A stretch of 64,000 bases of DNA from Escherichia coli (GTDB lineage Bacteria > Pseudomonadota > Gammaproteobacteria > Enterobacterales > Enterobacteriaceae), in the NCBI RefSeq assembly GCF_044324785.1, contig NZ_CP172127.1; one strand, 5' to 3'. Under the pieces are notes generated by a model. It made no database searches. It saw only the letters and a program-made list of their open reading frames with translations, and was not told the DNA's origin. The stretch's first letter is position 1; every line of letters starts with the position of its first letter. Position numbers and translations under genes: made by a program. Positions 2,180-11,966 of the stretch are shown here, piece by piece.

Positions 2180-3421
2180 ATGAAATGGTTTAACACCTTA
2201 AGTCACAACCGTTGGCTGGAACAGGAAACCGATCGCATCTTTGATTTTGGTAAAAATTCCGTAGTACCGACCGGATTTGGCTGGTTAGGCAATAAAGGGC
2301 AAATCAAAGAAGAGATGGGCACCCATCTGTGGATCACCGCTCGTATGTTGCACGTTTATTCTGTTGCTGCGGCGATGGGTCGACCTGGCGCTTACTCGTT
2401 GGTTGATCACGGTATCAAAGCCATGAACGGCGCACTGCGCGATAAAAAATATGGCGGTTGGTATGCCTGCGTGAATGACGAGGGCGTGGTGGATGCCTCC
2501 AAACAGGGCTATCAACACTTCTTTGCTCTGCTGGGTGCCGCCAGCGCGGTCACAACGGGTCACCCGGAAGCACGCAAGCTGCTCGATTACACCATTGAAA
2601 TTATCGAGAAATACTTCTGGAGCGAAGAAGAGCAGATGTGCCTTGAGTCCTGGGACGAAGCCTTCAGCAAAACCGAAGAATATCGCGGTGGCAATGCCAA
2701 CATGCACGCGGTAGAAGCCTTCCTGATTGTCTATGACGTCACGCATGACAAAAAATGGCTGGATCGCGCCATTCGCGTGGCTTCCGTGATTATCCACGAT
2801 GTCGCCAGAAATAATCATTATCGCGTTAACGAGCACTTCGATACCCAGTGGAATCCGCTGCCGGATTACAACAAAGATAACCCGGCGCACCGCTTCCGCG
2901 CGTTCGGAGGTACTCCGGGCCACTGGATCGAATGGGGCCGTTTAATGCTGCACATCCACGCTGCCCTGGAAGCCCGCTTCGAACAGCCGCCTGCCTGGCT
3001 GCTAGAAGATGCCAAAGGTCTGTTTAACGCCACCGTGCGCGATGCCTGGGCACCCGATGGCGCGGACGGGATTGTTTATACCGTTGACTGGGAAGGAAAA
3101 CCGGTGGTCCGCGAACGTGTGCGTTGGCCTATCGTCGAAGCGATGGGTACGGCCTACGCGCTCTACACCGTCACCGGCGATCGCCAGTATGAAACCTGGT
3201 ATCAGACATGGTGGGACTACTGCATTAAGTACCTGATGGACTATGAAAATGGTTCCTGGTGGCAGGAGCTGGATGCGGACAATAAGGTCACCACCAAAGT
3301 CTGGGACGGCAAACAGGATATTTATCACCTGCTGCATTGCCTGGTGATCCCGCGTATCCCGTTAGCGCCAGGCCTGGCTCCGGCAGTTGCGGCGGGTCTG
3401 CTGGATATTAACGCGAAATAA
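2180..3421 (+). CDS. yihS: sulfoquinovose isomerase (AGE-fold)
   Basis: 413-aa ORF, recognised protein, synteny. Confidence 0.88.
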
Positions 3422-4450: not shown

Positions 4451-5326
4451 ATGGACTTTTTTACATTATTTACGCCGGACGGGGCCATGGTGGAAACAAG
4501 CGTGGTATGTATCGTTATCGCGTTAATGTTTCTTTATACCTTTGTGGGGATATGCGCGGGATTTGGCGGTGGTTTAACCACTATGCCGCTCGTCACGTTA
4601 ATGCTCCCCGTAAAAATGGCAACTCCGCTCTCGGTGATTGTCGGCACCGCAACCGCCTTGTACGCCACCTGGCTGTCACGTAAAGAAACGGATTGGCGAT
4701 CGGCAATGGTACTGATTATTTTCTCGTTTCTGGGAATACCCGTCGGTTTATATGCGCTGTCGTATTTACCCGACCATTTTATGAAAGTGGGCTTAGGCGG
4801 ATTCCTTATCCTTTACTCGTTTTACAGCATGTTTATTCCTCGCCTGCCGATTTATGACCGTAACTGGATCGCCGCACCTATCGGCGCAGTAGCTGGTGCA
4901 TTAGGTGCGGCGTTCTCAACCAACGGACCGCCGATGGTTATCTACGGTATGCTGCGTAACTTAGGCCCGGCGGCATTTCGCGGCACTTTGAACGCTTTCT
5001 TCACCGCAAACAACATCGCGGTGATCGGCGGGCTGGCAACCAGCGGAATTTTGACTGTCTCTATCTTTAAACTGGTGTTGTTTTGTATTCCCACCATGAT
5101 CCTCGGTTCACTGGTTGGACAATATGTGCATAAACGCATTTCGGTCAAAGTGTTCCGTGTGATGGTCTTTTTATTGCTGATTGCCTCCGGTTCTATGTTG
5201 ATAAAAGGCGCGCTGGGAATTCCCGCCGCTGCCGCACTTCTGCCTCCGTTTACCTTGTTAGTTATACTGCAACTGGCATTCGGTAAAAAAGTGGCGGCAA
5301 TCCGCCGGGCTGAAGAAAGTAAATAA
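4451..5326 (+). CDS. TSUP / TauE-SafE family (DUF81) polytopic membrane permease; candidate sulfonate or sulfite exporter
   Basis: 291-aa ORF with SD AGGA 6 nt upstream of ATG; multiple hydrophobic helices and the family's Gly-rich motif (GFGGGLTTMPL); function is inferred from family and context only. Confidence 0.8.
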   Translation: MDFFTLFTPDGAMVETSVVCIVIALMFLYTFVGICAGFGGGLTTMPLVTLMLPVKMATPLSVIVGTATALYATWLSRKETDWRSAMVLIIFSFLGIPVGLYALSYLPDHFMKVGLGGFLILYSFYSMFIPRLPIYDRNWIAAPIGAVAGALGAAFSTNGPPMVIYGMLRNLGPAAFRGTLNAFFTANNIAVIGGLATSGILTVSIFKLVLFCIPTMILGSLVGQYVHKRISVKVFRVMVFLLLIASGSMLIKGALGIPAAAALLPPFTLLVILQLAFGKKVAAIRRAEESK

Positions 5327-5431
5327 TCATTATGCGGGTTTTAATTTATACCCGCACACATTCTTTAATTAATGAAACCTGTAATAACAGGATGGCATGA
5401 AATATTAGCTTTATATCTATGGAGATTATTT

Positions 5432-7468
5432 ATGGATACGCCACGCCCACAGTTACCAGATTTTAAATTTCATCATAATAACGACCGTTTTACCCTACGT
5501 TTTCAGGGCCGTCTTATTTTATCCCATAGTAAAGATAATCCTTGTTTATCGATTGGCTCAGGTATTGCGGATATTGATATGTTCCGTGGCAATTTCAGCA
5601 TTAAAGATAAATTGCAGGAGAAGATTGCGCTTACCGACGCTACCGTCAGCCAGTCACCGGATGGCTGGTTAATCCATTTCAGCCGTGGTTCTGACATTAG
5701 CGCCACGCTGAATATCTCTGCCGACGATCAGGGCCGTTTATTGCTGGAACTACAAAACGACAACCATCACCACAACCGCATCTGGCTGCGCCTTGCCGCT
5801 CAACCAGAGGACCATATCTACGGCTGCGGTGAACAATTCTCCTACTTTGATCTGCGCGGCAAACCGTTCCCGCTATGGACCAGTGAACAAGGCGTTGGTC
5901 GCAACAAGCAAACCTATGTCACCTGGCAGGCCGACTGCAAAGAGAACGCGGGCGGCGACTATTACTGGACTTTCTTCCCGCAGCCTACGTTTGTCAGCAC
6001 GCAGAAGTATTACTGCCATGTTGATAACAGTTGCTACATGAACTTCGACTTTAGTGCCCCGGATTACCACGAACTGGCGCTGTGGGAAGACAAAGCAACG
6101 CTGCGTTTTGAATGTGCTGATACATACATCTCCCTGCTGGAAAAATTAACTGCCCTGCTGGGACGCCAGCCAGAACTGCCCGACTGGATTTATGACGGGG
6201 TAACGCTCGGCATTCAGGGCGGGACGGAAGTGTGTCAGAAGAAACTGGACACCATGCGTAACGCGGGCGTGAAGGTTAACGGCATCTGGGCGCAGGACTG
6301 GTCCGGGATCCGTATGACCTCTTTTGGCAAACGCGTGATGTGGAACTGGAAGTGGAACAGCGAAAACTATCCGCAACTGGACTCACGTATTAAGCAGTGG
6401 AACAAAGAGGGCGTTCAGTTCCTTGCCTATATCAACCCGTATGTCGCCAGTGATAAAGACCTCTGTGCCGAAGCAGCAAAACACGGCTATCTGGCAAAAG
6501 ATGCCTGTGGCGGTGACTATCTGGTGGAATTCGGCGAGTTCTACGGCGGCGTTGTCGATCTCACTAATCCGGAAGCCTACGCCTGGTTCAAGGAAGTGAT
6601 CAAAAAGAACATGATTGAACTCGGCTGCGGCGGCTGGATGGCTGACTTCGGCGAGTATCTGCCCACCGACACTTACCTGCATAACGGCGTTAGCGCCGAA
6701 ATTATGCATAACGCCTGGCCCGCACTGTGGGCGAAGTGTAACTACGAAGCCCTTGAAGAAACGGGCAAGCTCGGCGAGATCCTTTTCTTTATGCGCGCCG
6801 GTTCTACCGGTAGCCAGAAATACTCCACCATGATGTGGGCGGGCGACCAGAACGTCGACTGGAGTCTGGACGATGGCCTGGCGTCGGTCGTCCCGGCGGC
6901 GCTGTCGCTGGCAATGACCGGACATGGCCTGCATCACAGTGACATTGGCGGTTATACCACCCTGTTTGAGATGAAGCGCAGCAAAGAGCTGCTGCTGCGC
7001 TGGTGCGATTTCAGCGCCTTCACGCCGATGATGCGCACCCACGAAGGCAACCGCCCCGGTGACAACTGGCAGTTTGACGGCGACGCGGAAACTATCGCCC
7101 ATTTTGCCCGTATGACCACCGTCTTCACCACCCTGAAACCTTACCTGAAAGAGGCCGTCGCGCTGAATGCGAAATCCGGCCTGCCAGTTATGCGCCCGCT
7201 GTTCCTGCATTACGAAGACGACGCGCAGACCTACACCCTGAAATATCAGTACCTGTTAGGCCGCGACATTCTGGTCGCTCCGGTGCATGAAGAAGGCCGT
7301 AGCGACTGGACGCTCTATCTGCCGGAGGATAACTGGGTCCATGCCTGGACGGGAGAAACCTTCCACGGGGGAGAAATAACCGTTGAAGCGCCCATCGGCA
7401 AGCCGCCGGTCTTTTATCGCGCCGATAGCGAATGGGCGGCACTGTTCGCGTCGTTAAAAAGCATCTAA
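5432..7468 (+). CDS. yihQ: sulfoquinovosidase, glycoside hydrolase family 31
   Basis: ORF track starts at 5372; the in-frame ATG at 5432 gives the 678-aa protein beginning MDTPRPQLPDF that I recognise. Confidence 0.9.
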   Translation: MDTPRPQLPDFKFHHNNDRFTLRFQGRLILSHSKDNPCLSIGSGIADIDMFRGNFSIKDKLQEKIALTDATVSQSPDGWLIHFSRGSDISATLNISADDQGRLLLELQNDNHHHNRIWLRLAAQPEDHIYGCGEQFSYFDLRGKPFPLWTSEQGVGRNKQTYVTWQADCKENAGGDYYWTFFPQPTFVSTQKYYCHVDNSCYMNFDFSAPDYHELALWEDKATLRFECADTYISLLEKLTALLGRQPELPDWIYDGVTLGIQGGTEVCQKKLDTMRNAGVKVNGIWAQDWSGIRMTSFGKRVMWNWKWNSENYPQLDSRIKQWNKEGVQFLAYINPYVASDKDLCAEAAKHGYLAKDACGGDYLVEFGEFYGGVVDLTNPEAYAWFKEVIKKNMIELGCGGWMADFGEYLPTDTYLHNGVSAEIMHNAWPALWAKCNYEALEETGKLGEILFFMRAGSTGSQKYSTMMWAGDQNVDWSLDDGLASVVPAALSLAMTGHGLHHSDIGGYTTLFEMKRSKELLLRWCDFSAFTPMMRTHEGNRPGDNWQFDGDAETIAHFARMTTVFTTLKPYLKEAVALNAKSGLPVMRPLFLHYEDDAQTYTLKYQYLLGRDILVAPVHEEGRSDWTLYLPEDNWVHAWTGETFHGGEITVEAPIGKPPVFYRADSEWAALFASLKSI

Positions 7469-7513
7469 TCACGTCCGCCCGTGGGGAAACTCACGGGCAA
7501 AGGGAGAACAACG

Positions 7514-8899
7514 ATGAGTCACATCACAACGGAAGATCCGGCTACTTTACGTCTGCCCTTTAAAGAGAAACTCTCTTACGGTATCGGCGATCTGGCCTCT
7601 AACATCCTGCTGGATATCGGCACGCTTTATCTTTTGAAGTTTTATACCGACGTTCTGGGGCTGCCCGGCACCTATGGCGGCATTATCTTTTTGATTTCAA
7701 AGTTCTTTACCGCCTTTACCGATATGGGTACCGGCATTATGTTGGATTCCCGACGCAAGATCGGTCCAAAAGGCAAATTCCGCCCTTTTATTCTGTATGC
7801 ATCATTCCCGGTCACCCTGTTGGCGATCGCCAACTTTATCGGCACACCGTTTGATGTCACCGGTAAAACGGTGATGGCCACCATCCTGTTTATGCTTTAC
7901 GGACTGTTTTTCAGCATGATGAACTGCTCCTACGGCGCAATGGTCCCCGCTATTACTAAAAACCCCAACGAACGTGCATCGCTGGCAGCATGGCGTCAGG
8001 GTGGCGCTACATTGGGCCTGCTGCTGTGTACGGTGGGATTCGTGCCGGTTATGAATCTTATCGAAGGTAATCAGCAACTTGGCTATATCTTCGCCGCCAC
8101 GCTGTTTTCACTGTTCGGCCTGCTGTTTATGTGGATCTGCTACTCGGGCGTGAAAGAGCGTTATGTCGAAACCCAACCTGCAAATCCGGCGCAAAAGCCT
8201 GGCCTGCTGCAGTCTTTCCGCGCGATTGCTGGTAACCGCCCACTATTCATTCTGTGTATTGCCAACCTCTGCACTTTAGGGGCGTTTAACGTCAAGCTCG
8301 CCATTCAGGTCTATTACACGCAGTACGTGCTTAACGATCCCATCCTGTTGTCGTATATGGGATTTTTCAGCATGGGCTGTATTTTCATCGGCGTGTTCCT
8401 GATGCCTGGTGCAGTCAGACGTTTTGGTAAGAAGAAGGTCTATATCGGCGGCCTGCTGATTTGGGTGCTGGGCGATCTGCTCAACTATTTCTTTGGCGGC
8501 GGCTCGGTCAGCTTTGTGGCGTTCTCCTGCCTGGCGTTCTTCGGCTCAGCGTTTGTTAACAGCCTGAACTGGGCGCTGGTTTCTGACACCGTCGAGTACG
8601 GCGAGTGGCGCACCGGTGTGCGTTCGGAAGGTACGGTCTACACCGGCTTCACTTTCTTTCGCAAAGTGTCTCAGGCGCTGGCTGGTTTCTTCCCCGGCTG
8701 GATGCTGACGCAAATCGGCTATGTGCCAAACGTGGCGCAGGCTGACCATACCATCGAAGGTTTACGCCAGCTGATCTTCATCTACCCAAGCGCACTGGCG
8801 GTAGTCACCATTGTGGCGATGGGTTGCTTCTACAGTCTGAACGAGAAAATGTACGTCCGCATTGTTGAAGAAATAGAAGCCCGTAAACGCACGGCATAA
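7514..8899 (+). CDS. yihP: GPH-family sugar:cation symporter
   Basis: ORF track starts at 7481; likely start ATG 7514 (MSHITTEDP...); 12-TM transporter, paralogous to yihO. Confidence 0.85.
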   Translation: MSHITTEDPATLRLPFKEKLSYGIGDLASNILLDIGTLYLLKFYTDVLGLPGTYGGIIFLISKFFTAFTDMGTGIMLDSRRKIGPKGKFRPFILYASFPVTLLAIANFIGTPFDVTGKTVMATILFMLYGLFFSMMNCSYGAMVPAITKNPNERASLAAWRQGGATLGLLLCTVGFVPVMNLIEGNQQLGYIFAATLFSLFGLLFMWICYSGVKERYVETQPANPAQKPGLLQSFRAIAGNRPLFILCIANLCTLGAFNVKLAIQVYYTQYVLNDPILLSYMGFFSMGCIFIGVFLMPGAVRRFGKKKVYIGGLLIWVLGDLLNYFFGGGSVSFVAFSCLAFFGSAFVNSLNWALVSDTVEYGEWRTGVRSEGTVYTGFTFFRKVSQALAGFFPGWMLTQIGYVPNVAQADHTIEGLRQLIFIYPSALAVVTIVAMGCFYSLNEKMYVRIVEEIEARKRTA

Positions 8900-10202
8900 A
8901 TAATAAACAACGCCCTGCGGGGCGTTATAAGGAGTGATTATGTCTGACCATAATCCACTGACATTAAGACTGAATCTGCGGGAAAAAATCGCCTATGGCA
9001 TGGGCGACGTCGGTTCGAATTTAATGCTTAGCATCGGCACTCTGTATCTCCTCAAATTTTATACCGATGAATTAGGGATGCCTGCTTACTATGGCGGGAT
9101 TATCTTTCTGGTAGCGAAGTTTTTTACCGCGTTTACCGATATGCTCACCGGATTTTTACTCGACTCGCGGAAAAATATTGGGCCTAAAGGCAAATTTCGT
9201 CCCTTTATTTTATATGCAGCGGTTCCGGCGGCGTTAATTGCAACGCTCCAGTTTATCGCCACCACTTTTAGTTTGCCGGTTAAAACGACGATTGCCACCG
9301 CGCTGTTTATGATGTTTGGACTTTCATACAGTCTGATGAACTGCTCGTATGGCGCGATGATCCCGGCAATTACCAAAAACCCCAATGAGCGCGCGCAGCT
9401 TGCGGCTTACCGCCAGGGTGGTGCAACCATAGGGCTATTGATTTGTACCGTGGCGTTTATTCCGTTGCAGTCGCTTTTTTCTGACTCCACCGTCGGTTAT
9501 GCCTGTGCGGCACTTATGTTCTCCATTGGCGGCTTTATTTTTATGATGCTGTGCTACAGAGGCGTCAAAGAGCATTATGTGGACACAACGCCAACCGGAC
9601 ATAAAGCCAGTATTCTCAAATCATTTTGCGCGATATTTCGGAATCCGCCATTGCTGGTTTTGTGCATTGCTAACCTGTGTACCCTGGCGGCATTTAATAT
9701 CAAACTGGCGATTCAGGTCTATTACACCCAGTATGTGCTGAATGATATTAACTTATTGTCGTGGATGGGATTCTTCAGTATGGGATGCATCCTCATCGGC
9801 GTATTGCTGGTGCCATTAAGCGTAAAATGTTTTGGTAAAAAACAGGTTTATTTAGCTGGCATGGTGCTGTGGGCGGTGGGGGATATCCTGAATTATTTCT
9901 GGGGAAGTAACTCTTTCACTTTCGTCATGTTCTCTTGTATCGCCTTTTTTGGCACGGCCTTTGTAAACAGCCTGAACTGGGCACTGGTGCCAGATACCGT
10001 AGATTACGGTGAATGGAAAACCGGTATTCGTGCCGAAGGTTCTGTTTATACCGGTTATACCTTCTTTCGTAAAATTTCTGCCGCACTTGCTGGCTTCTTG
10101 CCAGGCATTATGCTGACGCAAATCGGTTATATTCCCAACATCGCGCAGGTGATGCTGCCAACTTACTGATTTAGTGTATGATGGTGTTTTTGAGGTGCTC
10201 CA

Positions 10203-10478
10203 GTGGCTTCTGTTTCTATCAGCTGTCCCTCCTGTTCAGCTACTGACGGGGTGGTGCGTAACGGCAAAAGCACCGCCGGACATCAGCGCTATCTCTGCTC
10301 TCACTGCCGTAAAACATGGCAACTGCAGTTCACTTACACCGCTTCTCAACCCGGTACGCACCAGAAAATCATTGATATGGCCATGAATGGCGTTGGATGC
10401 CGGGCAACTGCCCGCATTATGGGCGTTGGCCTCAACACGATTTTACGTCACTTAAAAAACTCAGGCCGCAGTCGGTAA
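10203..10478 (+). CDS. insA: IS1 InsA
   Basis: 91-aa [27 protein letters not shown]..., recognised. Confidence 0.95.
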
Positions 10479-10900
10479 CCTCGCGCATACAGCCGGGCAG
10501 TGACGTCATCGTCTGCGCGGAAATGGACGAACAGTGGGGCTATGTCGGGGCTAAATCGCGCCAGCGCTGGCTGTTTTACGCGTATGACAGTCTCCGGAAG
10601 ACGGTTGTTGCGCACGTATTCGGTGAACGCACTATGGCGACGCTGGGGCGTCTTATGAGCCTGCTGTCACCCTTTGACGTGGTGATATGGATGACGGATG
10701 GCTGGCCGCTGTATGAATCCCGCCTGAAGGGAAAGCTGCACGTAATCAGCAAGCGATATACGCAGCGAATTGAGCGGCATAACCTGAATCTGAGGCAGCA
10801 CCTGGCACGGCTGGGACGGAAGTCGCTGTCGTTTTCAAAATCGGTGGAGCTGCATGACAAAGTCATCGGGCATTATCTGAACATAAAACACTATCAATAA
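10397..10900 (+). CDS. insB: IS1 InsB (made as InsAB' transposase by -1 frameshift at the A6C motif near 10453..10463)
   Basis: ORF in -1 frame overlapping insA; TTAAAAAACTC slippery motif present. Confidence 0.9.
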
Positions 10901-11186
10901 GTTGGAGTCATTACCCATCGCGCAAAGTGATGCGACATTACAGGGTTTGCGTCAGCTCATTTTTATCTGGCCTTGTGCACTGGCAATTATTGCTGCATTG
11001 ACGATGGGATTCTTTTACACACTCAATGAAAAACGGTTTGCGTTGATTATTGAGGAAATCAACCAACGCAAAAATAAAGAGATGGCGACAGAAGAAAAAA
11101 CGGCTTCCGTAACGTTATAAATGTCAATAGCCGCTATTTCCATCCTGGTGGGTGGCGGCCTCCCTACGTTTAAAAATGGACTTATT

Positions 11187-11885: not shown

Positions 11886-11966
<81 letters not shown>

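What the first reader, a model, noticed from the sequence alone, without database searches (positions are those of the whole stretch)
8900..8939. GC-rich hairpin between the paralogous transporters yihP and yihO
Immediately after the yihP stop there is a perfect inverted repeat AACGCCCTGCGGGGCGTT (about 8909..8926) followed by TATAAGGAGTGATTATG, i.e. a stem-loop sitting 13 nt before the yihO Shine–Dalgarno. It could be a partial terminator or RNA-stability element that sets the yihP:yihO expression ratio.
Basis: seen in the sequence. Interest (0 to 1): 0.2.

Follow-up and report, generated by a model that had tools for sequence, protein, structure and literature searches.

The report
Conserved RNA hairpin before yihO
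The short GC-rich hairpin between the two sulfoquinovose-operon transporter genes yihP and yihO is a real mRNA structure, conserved across many enterobacterial genera, that is not a transcription terminator and most likely shields the upstream message from degradation; this is an ordinary kind of element, not described before at this locus.

Summary
The hairpin AACGCCC-UGCG-GGGCGUU is at 8909-8926: 9 nt after the yihP stop, 3 nt before the yihO Shine-Dalgarno and 13 nt before the AUG.

A single 7-bp hairpin is not beyond chance in 64 kb. Comparative evidence shows it is real:
- 45 of 72 Enterobacterales loci carry it at the same place.
- There are 43 distinct variants, 94% of cells pair, and 5 of 8 pairs show compensatory changes.
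- Mismatches are G-U wobbles on the sense strand and never A-C.
- 30 of 43 loops are extra-stable UNCG tetraloops.

It is therefore an RNA structure in the yihPO mRNA. No variant has a U-tract. Published RNA-seq on sulfoquinovose gives a yihO/yihP read density of about 0.76, so it is not an intrinsic terminator.

A second covarying hairpin (7477-7498) sits the same way before the yihP Shine-Dalgarno.

Best explanation (confidence 0.4): an exonuclease-blocking hairpin like the galE hairpin, protecting yihQ-yihP mRNA. The main rival is a role at the yihO translation start. It matches no Rfam family and I found no paper on it.

In this strain IS1 (10148-10915) disrupts yihO.

Verdict: new member of a known kind, modest interest.

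The parts
5432..7468 (+). yihQ (sulfoquinovosidase), first gene of the + strand run yihQ-yihP-yihO-ompL
   Evidence: RefSeq annotation of 99.5%-identical E. coli N3 mapped onto the window; ORF 5372..7468
7477..7498 (+). H0, the twin hairpin GCCCGUGGG-GAAA-CUCACGGGC in the yihQ-yihP spacer. Its foot is 3-4 nt before the yihP SD (GGGAG) and 15 nt before the ATG at 7514.
   Evidence: Sequence. Fold -20.1 kcal/mol, z -3.8. Across 32 distinct orthologous sequences 98.3% of cells pair and 6 of 9 pairs show double changes; 0 of 500 shuffles reach any measure.
7514..8899 (+). yihP (MFS transporter; named as a putative 2,3-dihydroxypropane-1-sulfonate exporter in MG1655)
8897..8908 (+). yihP stop codon plus an AU-rich spacer (UAAAUAAUAAAC). 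The spacer is a length-polymorphic (TAA)n-like tract; K-12-like strains have four in-frame TAA codons.
   Evidence: Alignment of 7 E. coli sequences and the intergenic listing
8909..8926 (+). H1, the reported hairpin: 5' arm 8909-8915, UGCG tetraloop 8916-8919, 3' arm 8920-8926
   Evidence: Covariation on 38 sequences. The covariance model hits only this site in the window, at 58 bits.
8929..8934 (+). yihO Shine-Dalgarno AAGGAG, outside the H1 stem
   Evidence: Sequence. A purine-rich GAGGA/AAGGA block is conserved at this position in all variants.
8933..8959 (+). H2, a weaker hairpin AGUGAUUAUG / CAUAAUC-CACU that pairs the yihO AUG and the 3' end of the SD with codons 4-7
   Evidence: Predicted. 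In 16 Escherichia/Citrobacter/Salmonella-type sequences 94% of cells pair, against 23-42% for slid controls, but covariation does not exceed shuffles. Lineage-restricted; support is weak.
8940..10147 (+). yihO, 5' part (putative sulfoquinovose transporter), truncated in this strain
10148..10915 (+). IS1 insertion (768 bp) inside yihO, flanked by the 9-bp target duplication CATCGCGCA (10139-10147 and 10916-10924)
   Evidence: blastn against strain N3; terminal sequences; InsA and IS1 transposase Pfam hits
10916..11120 (+). yihO, 3' part
   Evidence: coordinate mapping
11130..11159 (+). Stem-loop GCCGC...GCGGC in the yihO-ompL spacer; not studied further
   Evidence: -19.7 kcal/mol, z -1.8

Best explanation
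H1 is a constitutively folded, tetraloop-capped stem-loop in the polycistronic yihQ-yihP-yihO-ompL mRNA. It acts after transcription as a barrier to 3'-to-5' exoribonucleases (an 'exo-block').

The proposed sequence of events:
1. Translation of yihO sometimes fails to start. This may be helped by H2, which pairs the AUG.
2. The message is then ended or cut inside yihO, by Rho or by RNase E.
3. Exonucleases trim it back only as far as the foot of H1.
4. A stable yihQ-yihP mRNA remains, and yihP is expressed somewhat more than yihO.

H0 would do the same for yihQ.

**Shown here:** the RNA structure, its selection on the sense strand, the absence of terminator features, and mostly read-through transcript levels.

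**Inferred:** the exonuclease barrier, the origin of the downstream 3' ends, and the effect on the expression ratio.
For: **Anatomy**
- The hairpin is stable at -8.9 to -20.4 kcal/mol (mean -15.3). It has 7-10 bp stems, and 30 of 43 variants have c(UNCG)g loops.
- No variant has a U-tract.
- Covariation: 94% of cells pair against 37-53% for slid controls, and 5 of 8 pairs show double changes.
- All 14 wobble cells in the core pairs are G-U or U-G on the + strand, and none is A-C.
- The stem starts a modal 11 nt after the yihP stop. By inference from ribosome footprints, that is just beyond a terminating ribosome, so the hairpin can stay folded.

**Expression data**
- K-12 on sulfoquinovose gives a step-down at each junction. 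Reads per nt are about 0.34 for yihQ, 0.15 for yihP, 0.11 for yihO and 0.03 for ompL (counts from the PMC12608037 supplement).
- A Rho termination region has been reported inside yihP (PMC7815308).

**Tested precedent**
- The galE hairpin has the same size (8-bp stem, 4-nt loop, no U-tract). It blocks exonucleases after Rho termination or RNase E cleavage downstream and sets operon polarity (PMC11925234; PMC9239205).

**Context**
- A second covarying hairpin lies at the preceding junction, and REP elements follow ompL.
Against: - There is no 3'-end, half-life or mutant data for this locus.
- The RNA-seq gradient rests on about 150-700 reads per gene. It could equally reflect ordinary 5'-to-3' decline or Rho polarity.
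- The foot of the stem keeps a tight distance to the yihO AUG (10-15 nt, mode 11) in 43 variants.
- The hairpin stays next to the yihO SD where yihP is replaced by a TauE gene and the spacer is 55-70 nt longer (L052 and L076). A pure exo-block would not need that placement.
- Several genera have lost the hairpin cleanly (Atlantibacter, Kluyvera, Buttiauxella, Rahnella victoriana, Pantoea stewartii), so it is dispensable.
Confidence: 0.4

Rival explanations
1. H1 belongs to the yihO translation initiation region. It is a fixed helix at the 5' edge of the SD. It could insulate the start site from upstream sequence and ribosome traffic, block 70S scanning or re-initiation from yihP, stack on the SD/anti-SD helix, or serve as a 5'-terminal protective stem after cleavage in the AU-rich spacer. 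In any of these roles it tunes yihO translation or stability rather than yihP stability.
For: - The foot-to-AUG distance is 10-15 nt (mode 11) in 43 variants, and in many the SD begins directly at the foot.
- The hairpin is kept next to the yihO SD in L052 and L076, where the upstream gene is TauE rather than yihP.
- H0 has the same geometry before the yihP SD, about 15 nt to the ATG in nearly all genera.
- Loci without the hairpin have 9-25 nt spacers, which are compatible with direct translational coupling instead.
Against: - The whole spacer is short and conserved in length, so the constant distance could simply be inherited.
- The SD and AUG are never inside the H1 stem, so there is no obvious switch.
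- No alternative pairing of the H1 arms was found.
- There are no experimental data.
Confidence: 0.25
2. H1 is a weak intrinsic terminator or attenuator on the + strand that stops a fraction of RNA polymerases between yihP and yihO.
For: - It is a GC-rich hairpin placed far enough from the stop codon to fold.
- yihO read density is about 24% lower than yihP.
- One distant relative (Anaerobiospirillum, L075) has a canonical 13-bp stem plus T8 terminator at this junction.
Against: - The tail is AUAAGGAG here and (A/U)GAGGAUCG in most genera. No variant has a U-run.
- The terminator scan does not call the + strand.
- At least about 76% of transcript density continues into yihO.
- No Term-seq 3' end is listed at this junction, although those cultures were uninduced.
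Confidence: 0.08
3. The structure has no present function. It is a tolerated relic, for example of a terminator that predates the tandem duplication or operon fusion, or a neutral palindrome.
For: It has been lost cleanly and repeatedly, even between congeners (Rahnella L044 against L045, Pantoea L047 against L054).
Against: - Compensatory substitutions occur in 5 of 8 pairs.
- The wobbles are strand-specific.
- The loops are enriched for UNCG and GNRA tetraloops across many genera.
These patterns indicate continued selection for a stable sense-strand RNA helix.
Confidence: 0.1
4. It works on the minus strand as an intrinsic terminator of antisense transcription, or at the DNA level as a palindromic protein-binding site.
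For: In E. coli the minus-strand version has a 9-bp stem followed by UUAUUAUUUA. It is the only orientation called by the scan, and its fold has z -3.6.
Against: - The U-rich minus-strand tail is not conserved outside the Escherichia/Citrobacter type.
- The K-12 and O157 variants, and 14 cells overall, are G-U on the + strand. These would be A-C mismatches on the minus strand and break DNA dyad symmetry.
- The stem sequence itself varies (AACGCCC, AGCGCCC, GGCGCC, GCGCUC and others), which does not fit a sequence-specific operator.
Confidence: 0.05

Closest known systems
galE hairpin of the E. coli galETKM operon (exo-block hairpin that creates stable galE mRNA 3' ends; PMC11925234, PMC9239205)
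   Same: - It is a short, stable stem-loop (8-bp stem, 4-nt loop) with no U-tract, internal to a polycistronic mRNA near a cistron boundary.
- It is proposed to stop 3'-to-5' exonucleases after Rho termination or RNase E cleavage in the next cistron, giving promoter-proximal genes higher expression.
   Different: - The galE hairpin lies about 120 nt inside galT, whereas H1 lies in the spacer directly against the next gene's SD.
- The gal function is shown by mutants and 3' RACE, whereas nothing has been tested for yihPO.
- H1 has a twin (H0) at the preceding junction.
REP/BIME intercistronic stabilisers (malE-malF, hisJ-hisQ) and the Rhodobacter pufBA intercistronic hairpin (my own knowledge of the classical literature)
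   Same: They are intercistronic stem-loops that protect the upstream mRNA segment from exonucleases and cause differential expression within an operon.
   Different: - H1 is not a REP. It has no REP consensus.
- It is single-copy: the covariance model finds one site in the 64-kb window and one per orthologous locus.
- True REPs lie after ompL at 11890-11965.
Intrinsic (Rho-independent) terminators
   Same: It has a GC-rich stem with a stable tetraloop. C(UNCG)G hairpins are common in terminators and phage intercistronic regions (own knowledge: Tuerk et al. 1988).
   Different: - It has no U-tract on the sense strand in any ortholog.
- It lies inside an operon.
- Most transcript density continues past it.
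Engineered tunable intergenic regions and 5' hairpin stabilisers (own knowledge: Smolke, Carrier and Keasling 2000; Pfleger et al. 2006)
   Same: Hairpins are placed in spacers between cistrons to set relative mRNA stability and translation of neighbouring genes.
   Different: Those are synthetic. H1 and H0 would be natural counterparts, but this is unproven.

Membership tests
Intrinsic terminator | GC-rich stem-loop | tested here: met
   7-bp stem with 5 G-C pairs, -12.2 kcal/mol
Intrinsic terminator | U-rich tract immediately 3' of the stem on the transcribed strand | tested here: not met
   The tail is AUAAGGAGUG. The scan lists no + strand site here. The U-tract is absent in all 43 variants.
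Intrinsic terminator | Strong loss of downstream transcript, or mapped 3' ends in the U-tract | tested here: inconclusive
   Published counts give yihO/yihP density of about 0.76 on sulfoquinovose. Term-seq lists no 3' end at this junction, but the operon was uninduced.
Exo-block / intercistronic mRNA stabiliser hairpin (galE type) | Stable stem-loop without a U-tract, inside a polycistronic transcript, selected as RNA | tested here: met
Exo-block / intercistronic mRNA stabiliser hairpin (galE type) | Upstream cistron mRNA more abundant than downstream cistron mRNA | tested here: inconclusive
   0.15 against 0.11 reads per nt, from low counts, with gene-level data only
Exo-block / intercistronic mRNA stabiliser hairpin (galE type) | RNA 3' ends a few nt downstream of the stem foot; loss of these ends and of upstream stability when the stem is disrupted | not testable with these tools
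   Needs 3' RACE or Term-seq and stem mutants under sulfoquinovose induction
REP / BIME repeats | Dispersed multi-copy family with a REP consensus | tested here: not met
   The covariance model finds one site in the window and one per locus in 500 kb of orthologous loci. A motif scan finds no other copies.
Any Rfam family | Match to a curated covariance model | tested here: not met
   cmscan of 7300-10300 at E-value up to 10 gives only two chance-level hits elsewhere
SD/AUG-sequestering translational operator hairpin | SD or start codon base-paired within the element | tested here: not met
   The SD and AUG lie 3' of the H1 stem in every variant. The neighbouring H2 does pair the AUG, but only in one clade and without significant covariation.
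Palindromic DNA operator | Strand-symmetric conservation of a specific sequence | tested here: not met
   The stem sequence varies while pairing is kept. There are 14 G-U wobble cells and 0 A-C cells in the core pairs.

The most novel reading that the evidence does not exclude
H1 and H0 are two instances of an unrecognised natural design: an extra-stable, tetraloop-capped helix placed directly against the Shine-Dalgarno of an internal cistron. It would act at translation initiation, for example as a platform or stacking partner for the 30S subunit, or as a block to ribosome scanning from the upstream gene. Each transporter would then be translated independently of its neighbour. Together with start-site pairing (H2 in the E. 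coli type, and a UGGCAGG/CCUGUCA long-range pairing in Yersinia, Hafnia and Serratia), it would put yihO under translational control.
Probability: 0.15. Interest if true: 0.5.

Novelty: new member of a known kind. Interest (0 to 1): 0.3.

Why it matters
If confirmed, this would be a second, evolutionarily well-supported natural example of hairpins shaping expression within an operon. Here that would be the ratio of the putative sulfoquinovose importer YihO, the putative DHPS exporter YihP and the sulfoquinovosidase YihQ. It would also supply two compact, covariation-validated parts for operon engineering. For genome annotation, it shows that a GC-rich hairpin after a stop codon should not be read as a terminator when it runs straight into the next Shine-Dalgarno. 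The practical importance is modest.

Tried and rejected
- **Rfam:** a search of 7300-10300 and of the Yersinia-type spacer found no family.
- **Literature:** a search for yihP, yihO and terminator returned nothing. The CsqR and yih papers do not mention the junction.
- **Term-seq:** the tables of Adams et al. list no 3' end at the junction, only a Rho region inside yihP at MG1655 4066197(-), about 1 kb into the gene. The supplements of PMC9023263 are not held as text.
- **MG1655 RefSeq:** no feature is annotated in the 42-nt spacer.
- **Dispersed repeat or REP:** rejected.
- **Homology between H1 and H0:** the H1 model does not detect H0, so a common origin through the gene duplication cannot be shown.
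- **H2:** RNAalifold over -40..+36 returns only H1. H2 has two different registers in different clades, and its covariation is not above shuffles.
- **RNase E motif:** I looked by eye for an RN|WUU-type motif in the AU-rich spacer. It is absent in E. coli and inconsistent across genera.
- **Hairpin-stabilised RNA polymerase pause at the yihO AUG:** considered and set aside. The stem foot would be about 15 nt behind the pause site, too far for a his-type pause hairpin (inference only).

Full report
**1. The observation**

The window reads ...CGCACGGCA TAA ATAATAAAC AACGCCC TGCG GGGCGTT ATA AGGAG TGATT ATG....
- The inverted repeat occupies 8909-8926, the yihP stop is 8897-8899, AGGAG is 8930-8934 and the yihO ATG is 8940.
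- The hairpin therefore begins 9 nt after the stop. It ends 3 nt before the Shine-Dalgarno and 13 nt before the start codon.
- The 18-mer folds at -12.2 kcal/mol, z -3.8, with 0 of 200 shuffles as good.
- RefSeq annotation of matching E. coli genomes names the genes yihP and yihO, both MFS transporters. They are about 65% identical paralogues.
- A perfect 7-bp hairpin is not remarkable by itself. Markov simulations of the window give about 26 per 64 kb.

**2. The hairpin is a selected RNA structure of the sense strand**

Within E. coli the spacer is nearly invariant. The two stem polymorphisms I sampled keep pairing through wobble: GACGCCC in K-12-like strains gives G-U, and AAUGCCC in O157 gives U-G.

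A scan of one genome per species returned 72 loci from Enterobacterales and relatives.
- In most of these loci the yihP-yihO spacer is 36-47 nt and holds a hairpin at the same place, with different stem sequences such as AGCGCCC, GACGCCC, GGCGCC, GCGCUC and GCGCCG.
- On 38 distinct sequences, 94.1% of cells pair, against 37-53% when the partner column is slid.
- Five of 8 pairs show changes on both sides.
- No shuffle out of 500 reaches the observed percentage paired, the number of doubly changed cells, or the covariation score.
- RNAalifold recovers the same helix.
- All 14 wobble cells in the core pairs are G-U or U-G on the + strand. The four non-pairs are U-U, G-A and G-G, never A-C. These cells are not independent events. 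Even so, the asymmetry argues for an RNA helix in the mRNA sense and against a minus-strand RNA or a DNA palindrome.

A covariance model built from the alignment finds one site in the window (8900-8942, 58 bits). It finds exactly one + strand site, ending at the yihO ATG, in 45 of 72 loci, including loci not used to build it. The element is therefore locus-specific and not a dispersed repeat. No Rfam family matches.

Across 43 distinct variants:
- stability is -8.9 to -20.4 kcal/mol, mean -15.3;
- the loop is c(UNCG)g in 30 and GNRA in 2;
- the stem foot lies 10-15 nt from the AUG, mode 11.

UNCG and GNRA loops are the classic extra-stable tetraloops (my own knowledge), so selection appears to favour a helix that is always folded.

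**3. It is not a terminator**
- After the stem comes AUAAGGAG here and (A/U)GAGGAUCG in most genera. No variant has a U-run.
- The consensus scan lists only the minus-strand orientation, where the (TAA)n spacer supplies UUAUUAUUUA. That tail is not conserved in other genera, and the wobble pattern contradicts a minus-strand function.
- Published raw counts for MG1655 on sulfoquinovose are yihQ 676/699, yihP 204/212, yihO 149/169 and ompL 25/13 (PMC12608037 supplement).
- Dividing by gene lengths gives about 0.34, 0.15, 0.11 and 0.03 reads per nt. The yihO/yihP ratio is about 0.76, with a rough 95% interval of 0.65-0.87 from counting error.
- Most transcripts therefore continue through the junction.
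- Term-seq in LB and M63 glucose lists no 3' end at the junction, but the operon is silent there. The same study reports a Rho termination region inside yihP (PMC7815308).

**4. Context that bears on mechanism**

(a) The yihQ-yihP spacer holds a twin hairpin, H0 (7477-7498), GCCCGUGGG-GAAA-CUCACGGGC. Its foot is 3-4 nt before the yihP SD. H0 is even better supported: in 32 sequences 98.3% of cells pair, 6 of 9 pairs show double changes, and no shuffle reaches any measure. The yihO-ompL spacer also has a stem-loop, and REP elements follow ompL.

(b) In Lelliottia (L052) and a metagenomic Enterobacter (L076) there is no yihP. A TauE/SafE gene precedes the yihO-like gene, the spacer is 55-70 nt longer, and the hairpin still sits 11 nt before the ATG.

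(c) The hairpin has been excised cleanly in Atlantibacter, Kluyvera, Buttiauxella, Rahnella victoriana and Pantoea stewartii, leaving 9-25 nt spacers. It is therefore useful but dispensable.

(d) The yihO AUG and the 3' end of its SD can pair with codons 4-7 (H2, 8933-8959). In 16 Escherichia/Citrobacter/Salmonella-type sequences 94% of cells pair, but covariation is not beyond shuffles.

(e) The stem usually begins about 11 nt after the stop. From standard ribosome footprints, that is just beyond a terminating ribosome (inference).

**5. Mechanism**

The best-supported reading is an exo-block hairpin. The tested precedent is the galE hairpin, with an 8-bp stem, a 4-nt loop and no U-tract. There, transcripts ended by Rho or cut by RNase E inside the next cistron are trimmed back to the hairpin. 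This leaves a stable upstream mRNA and creates polarity (PMC11925234; PMC9239205).

H1 has the same anatomy and lies in an operon with a step-down at each junction. Rho termination has also been documented in this operon. I put this reading at 0.4.

The main rival, at 0.25, is that H1 and H0 are parts of the translation initiation regions. Their fixed position against the SD and point (b) above favour this. It could mean insulation, a block to ribosome scanning, stacking on the SD helix, or a 5' protective stem after processing. The two roles are not exclusive.

The remaining readings:
- weak intrinsic termination, 0.08;
- no present function, 0.1;
- a minus-strand or DNA-level role, 0.05.

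**6. Comparison and novelty**

H1 works like known intercistronic stabiliser hairpins: galE, the malE-malF REP and pufBA.
- It fails the defining U-tract test for intrinsic terminators.
- It fails the copy-number and consensus test for REPs.
- It matches no Rfam family.
- I found no paper on it, and MG1655 RefSeq annotates nothing in the spacer.

It is a new, well-conserved member of a known kind.

**7. A caveat for this window**

In this strain yihO is interrupted by IS1 at 10148-10915, with a 9-bp target duplication. Whatever H1 does for yihO expression is therefore moot here. A role in protecting the yihQ-yihP message would persist.

**Verdict**

The feature is real. Interest is modest (0.3).

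Noticed in passing
window 10148-10915: A 768-bp IS1 (InsA and InsB' ORFs at 10203-10478 and 10397-10900) is inserted in yihO, with the 9-bp target duplication CATCGCGCA. yihO is therefore a pseudogene in this strain. The closest genome (E. coli N3, 99.5% identical) lacks the insertion.
   Followed up: yes
window 7477-7498: A twin hairpin, GCCCGUGGG-GAAA-CUCACGGGC, lies in the yihQ-yihP spacer 3-4 nt before the yihP SD. It is conserved with strong covariation across 32 distinct orthologous sequences (98% paired, 6 of 9 pairs with double changes).
   Followed up: yes
window 8933-8959: A second hairpin, AGUGAUUAUG/CAUAAUC-CACU, pairs the yihO start codon and the end of the SD with codons 4-7. It includes a UTR position that changes together with the third position of a Pro codon between E. 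coli and Citrobacter. It is conserved in the Escherichia/Citrobacter/Salmonella type. Enterobacter-type sequences instead pair GGAUC of the SD with the Asp-Pro codons GAUCC.
   Followed up: partly
window 4451-5326: A TauE/SafE-family sulfite or organosulfonate exporter gene lies between yihR and yihQ. It is present here and in strain N3 but absent from the K-12-like cassette. At yihP/yihO the window is only about 96% identical to most E. coli; only 2 of 3887 matching genomes are at least 99% identical.
   Followed up: partly
window 8897-8908: The yihP stop lies in a length-polymorphic (TAA)n-like tract. K-12-like strains have four in-frame TAA codons, while this strain has TAAATAATAAAC. In E. 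coli this tract gives the minus strand a terminator-like U-rich tail after the hairpin.
   Followed up: partly
L051 2834-2985, L073, L055, L050, L061 (yihP-yihO spacers of Yersinia, Hafnia, Mixta, Serratia): These genera have an 87-240 nt spacer with a different, larger stem-loop. It carries a conserved exposed UGGCAGG (GACAGA in Serratia microhaemolytica) complementary to CCUGUCA (UCUGUC) between the yihO SD and AUG. This may be a long-range pairing with the start site that shows a compensatory change. There is no Rfam match.
   Followed up: partly
L052 1996-3000 and L076 about 2700-3000: This is a cassette variant in Lelliottia and an uncultured Enterobacter: GH31 yihQ, then a TauE exporter, then the H1-type hairpin, then a single yihO-like transporter, with no yihP. 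The order fits TauE replacing the putative DHPS exporter YihP.
   Followed up: partly
L075 about 2884-2960 (Anaerobiospirillum MAG): At the same junction this distant relative has a canonical intrinsic terminator, a 13-bp stem followed by T8, instead of the U-less hairpin.
   Followed up: no
window 11130-11159 and 11890-11965: A stem-loop (GCCGC...GCGGC) lies in the yihO-ompL spacer, and REP-type palindromes (GCCGGATGCGGCGTAAACGCCTTATCCGGCCTAC and TGGCCGGAT...ATCCGGCCA) lie after ompL, between the convergent ompL and yihN.
   Followed up: no
MG1655 4066197 (-), inside yihP (equivalent to about window 8510): Adams et al. 2021 list a Rho termination region (Rho score 4.0) about 1 kb into yihP in LB-grown cells. 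This shows the silent operon is subject to Rho-dependent polarity.
   Followed up: partly
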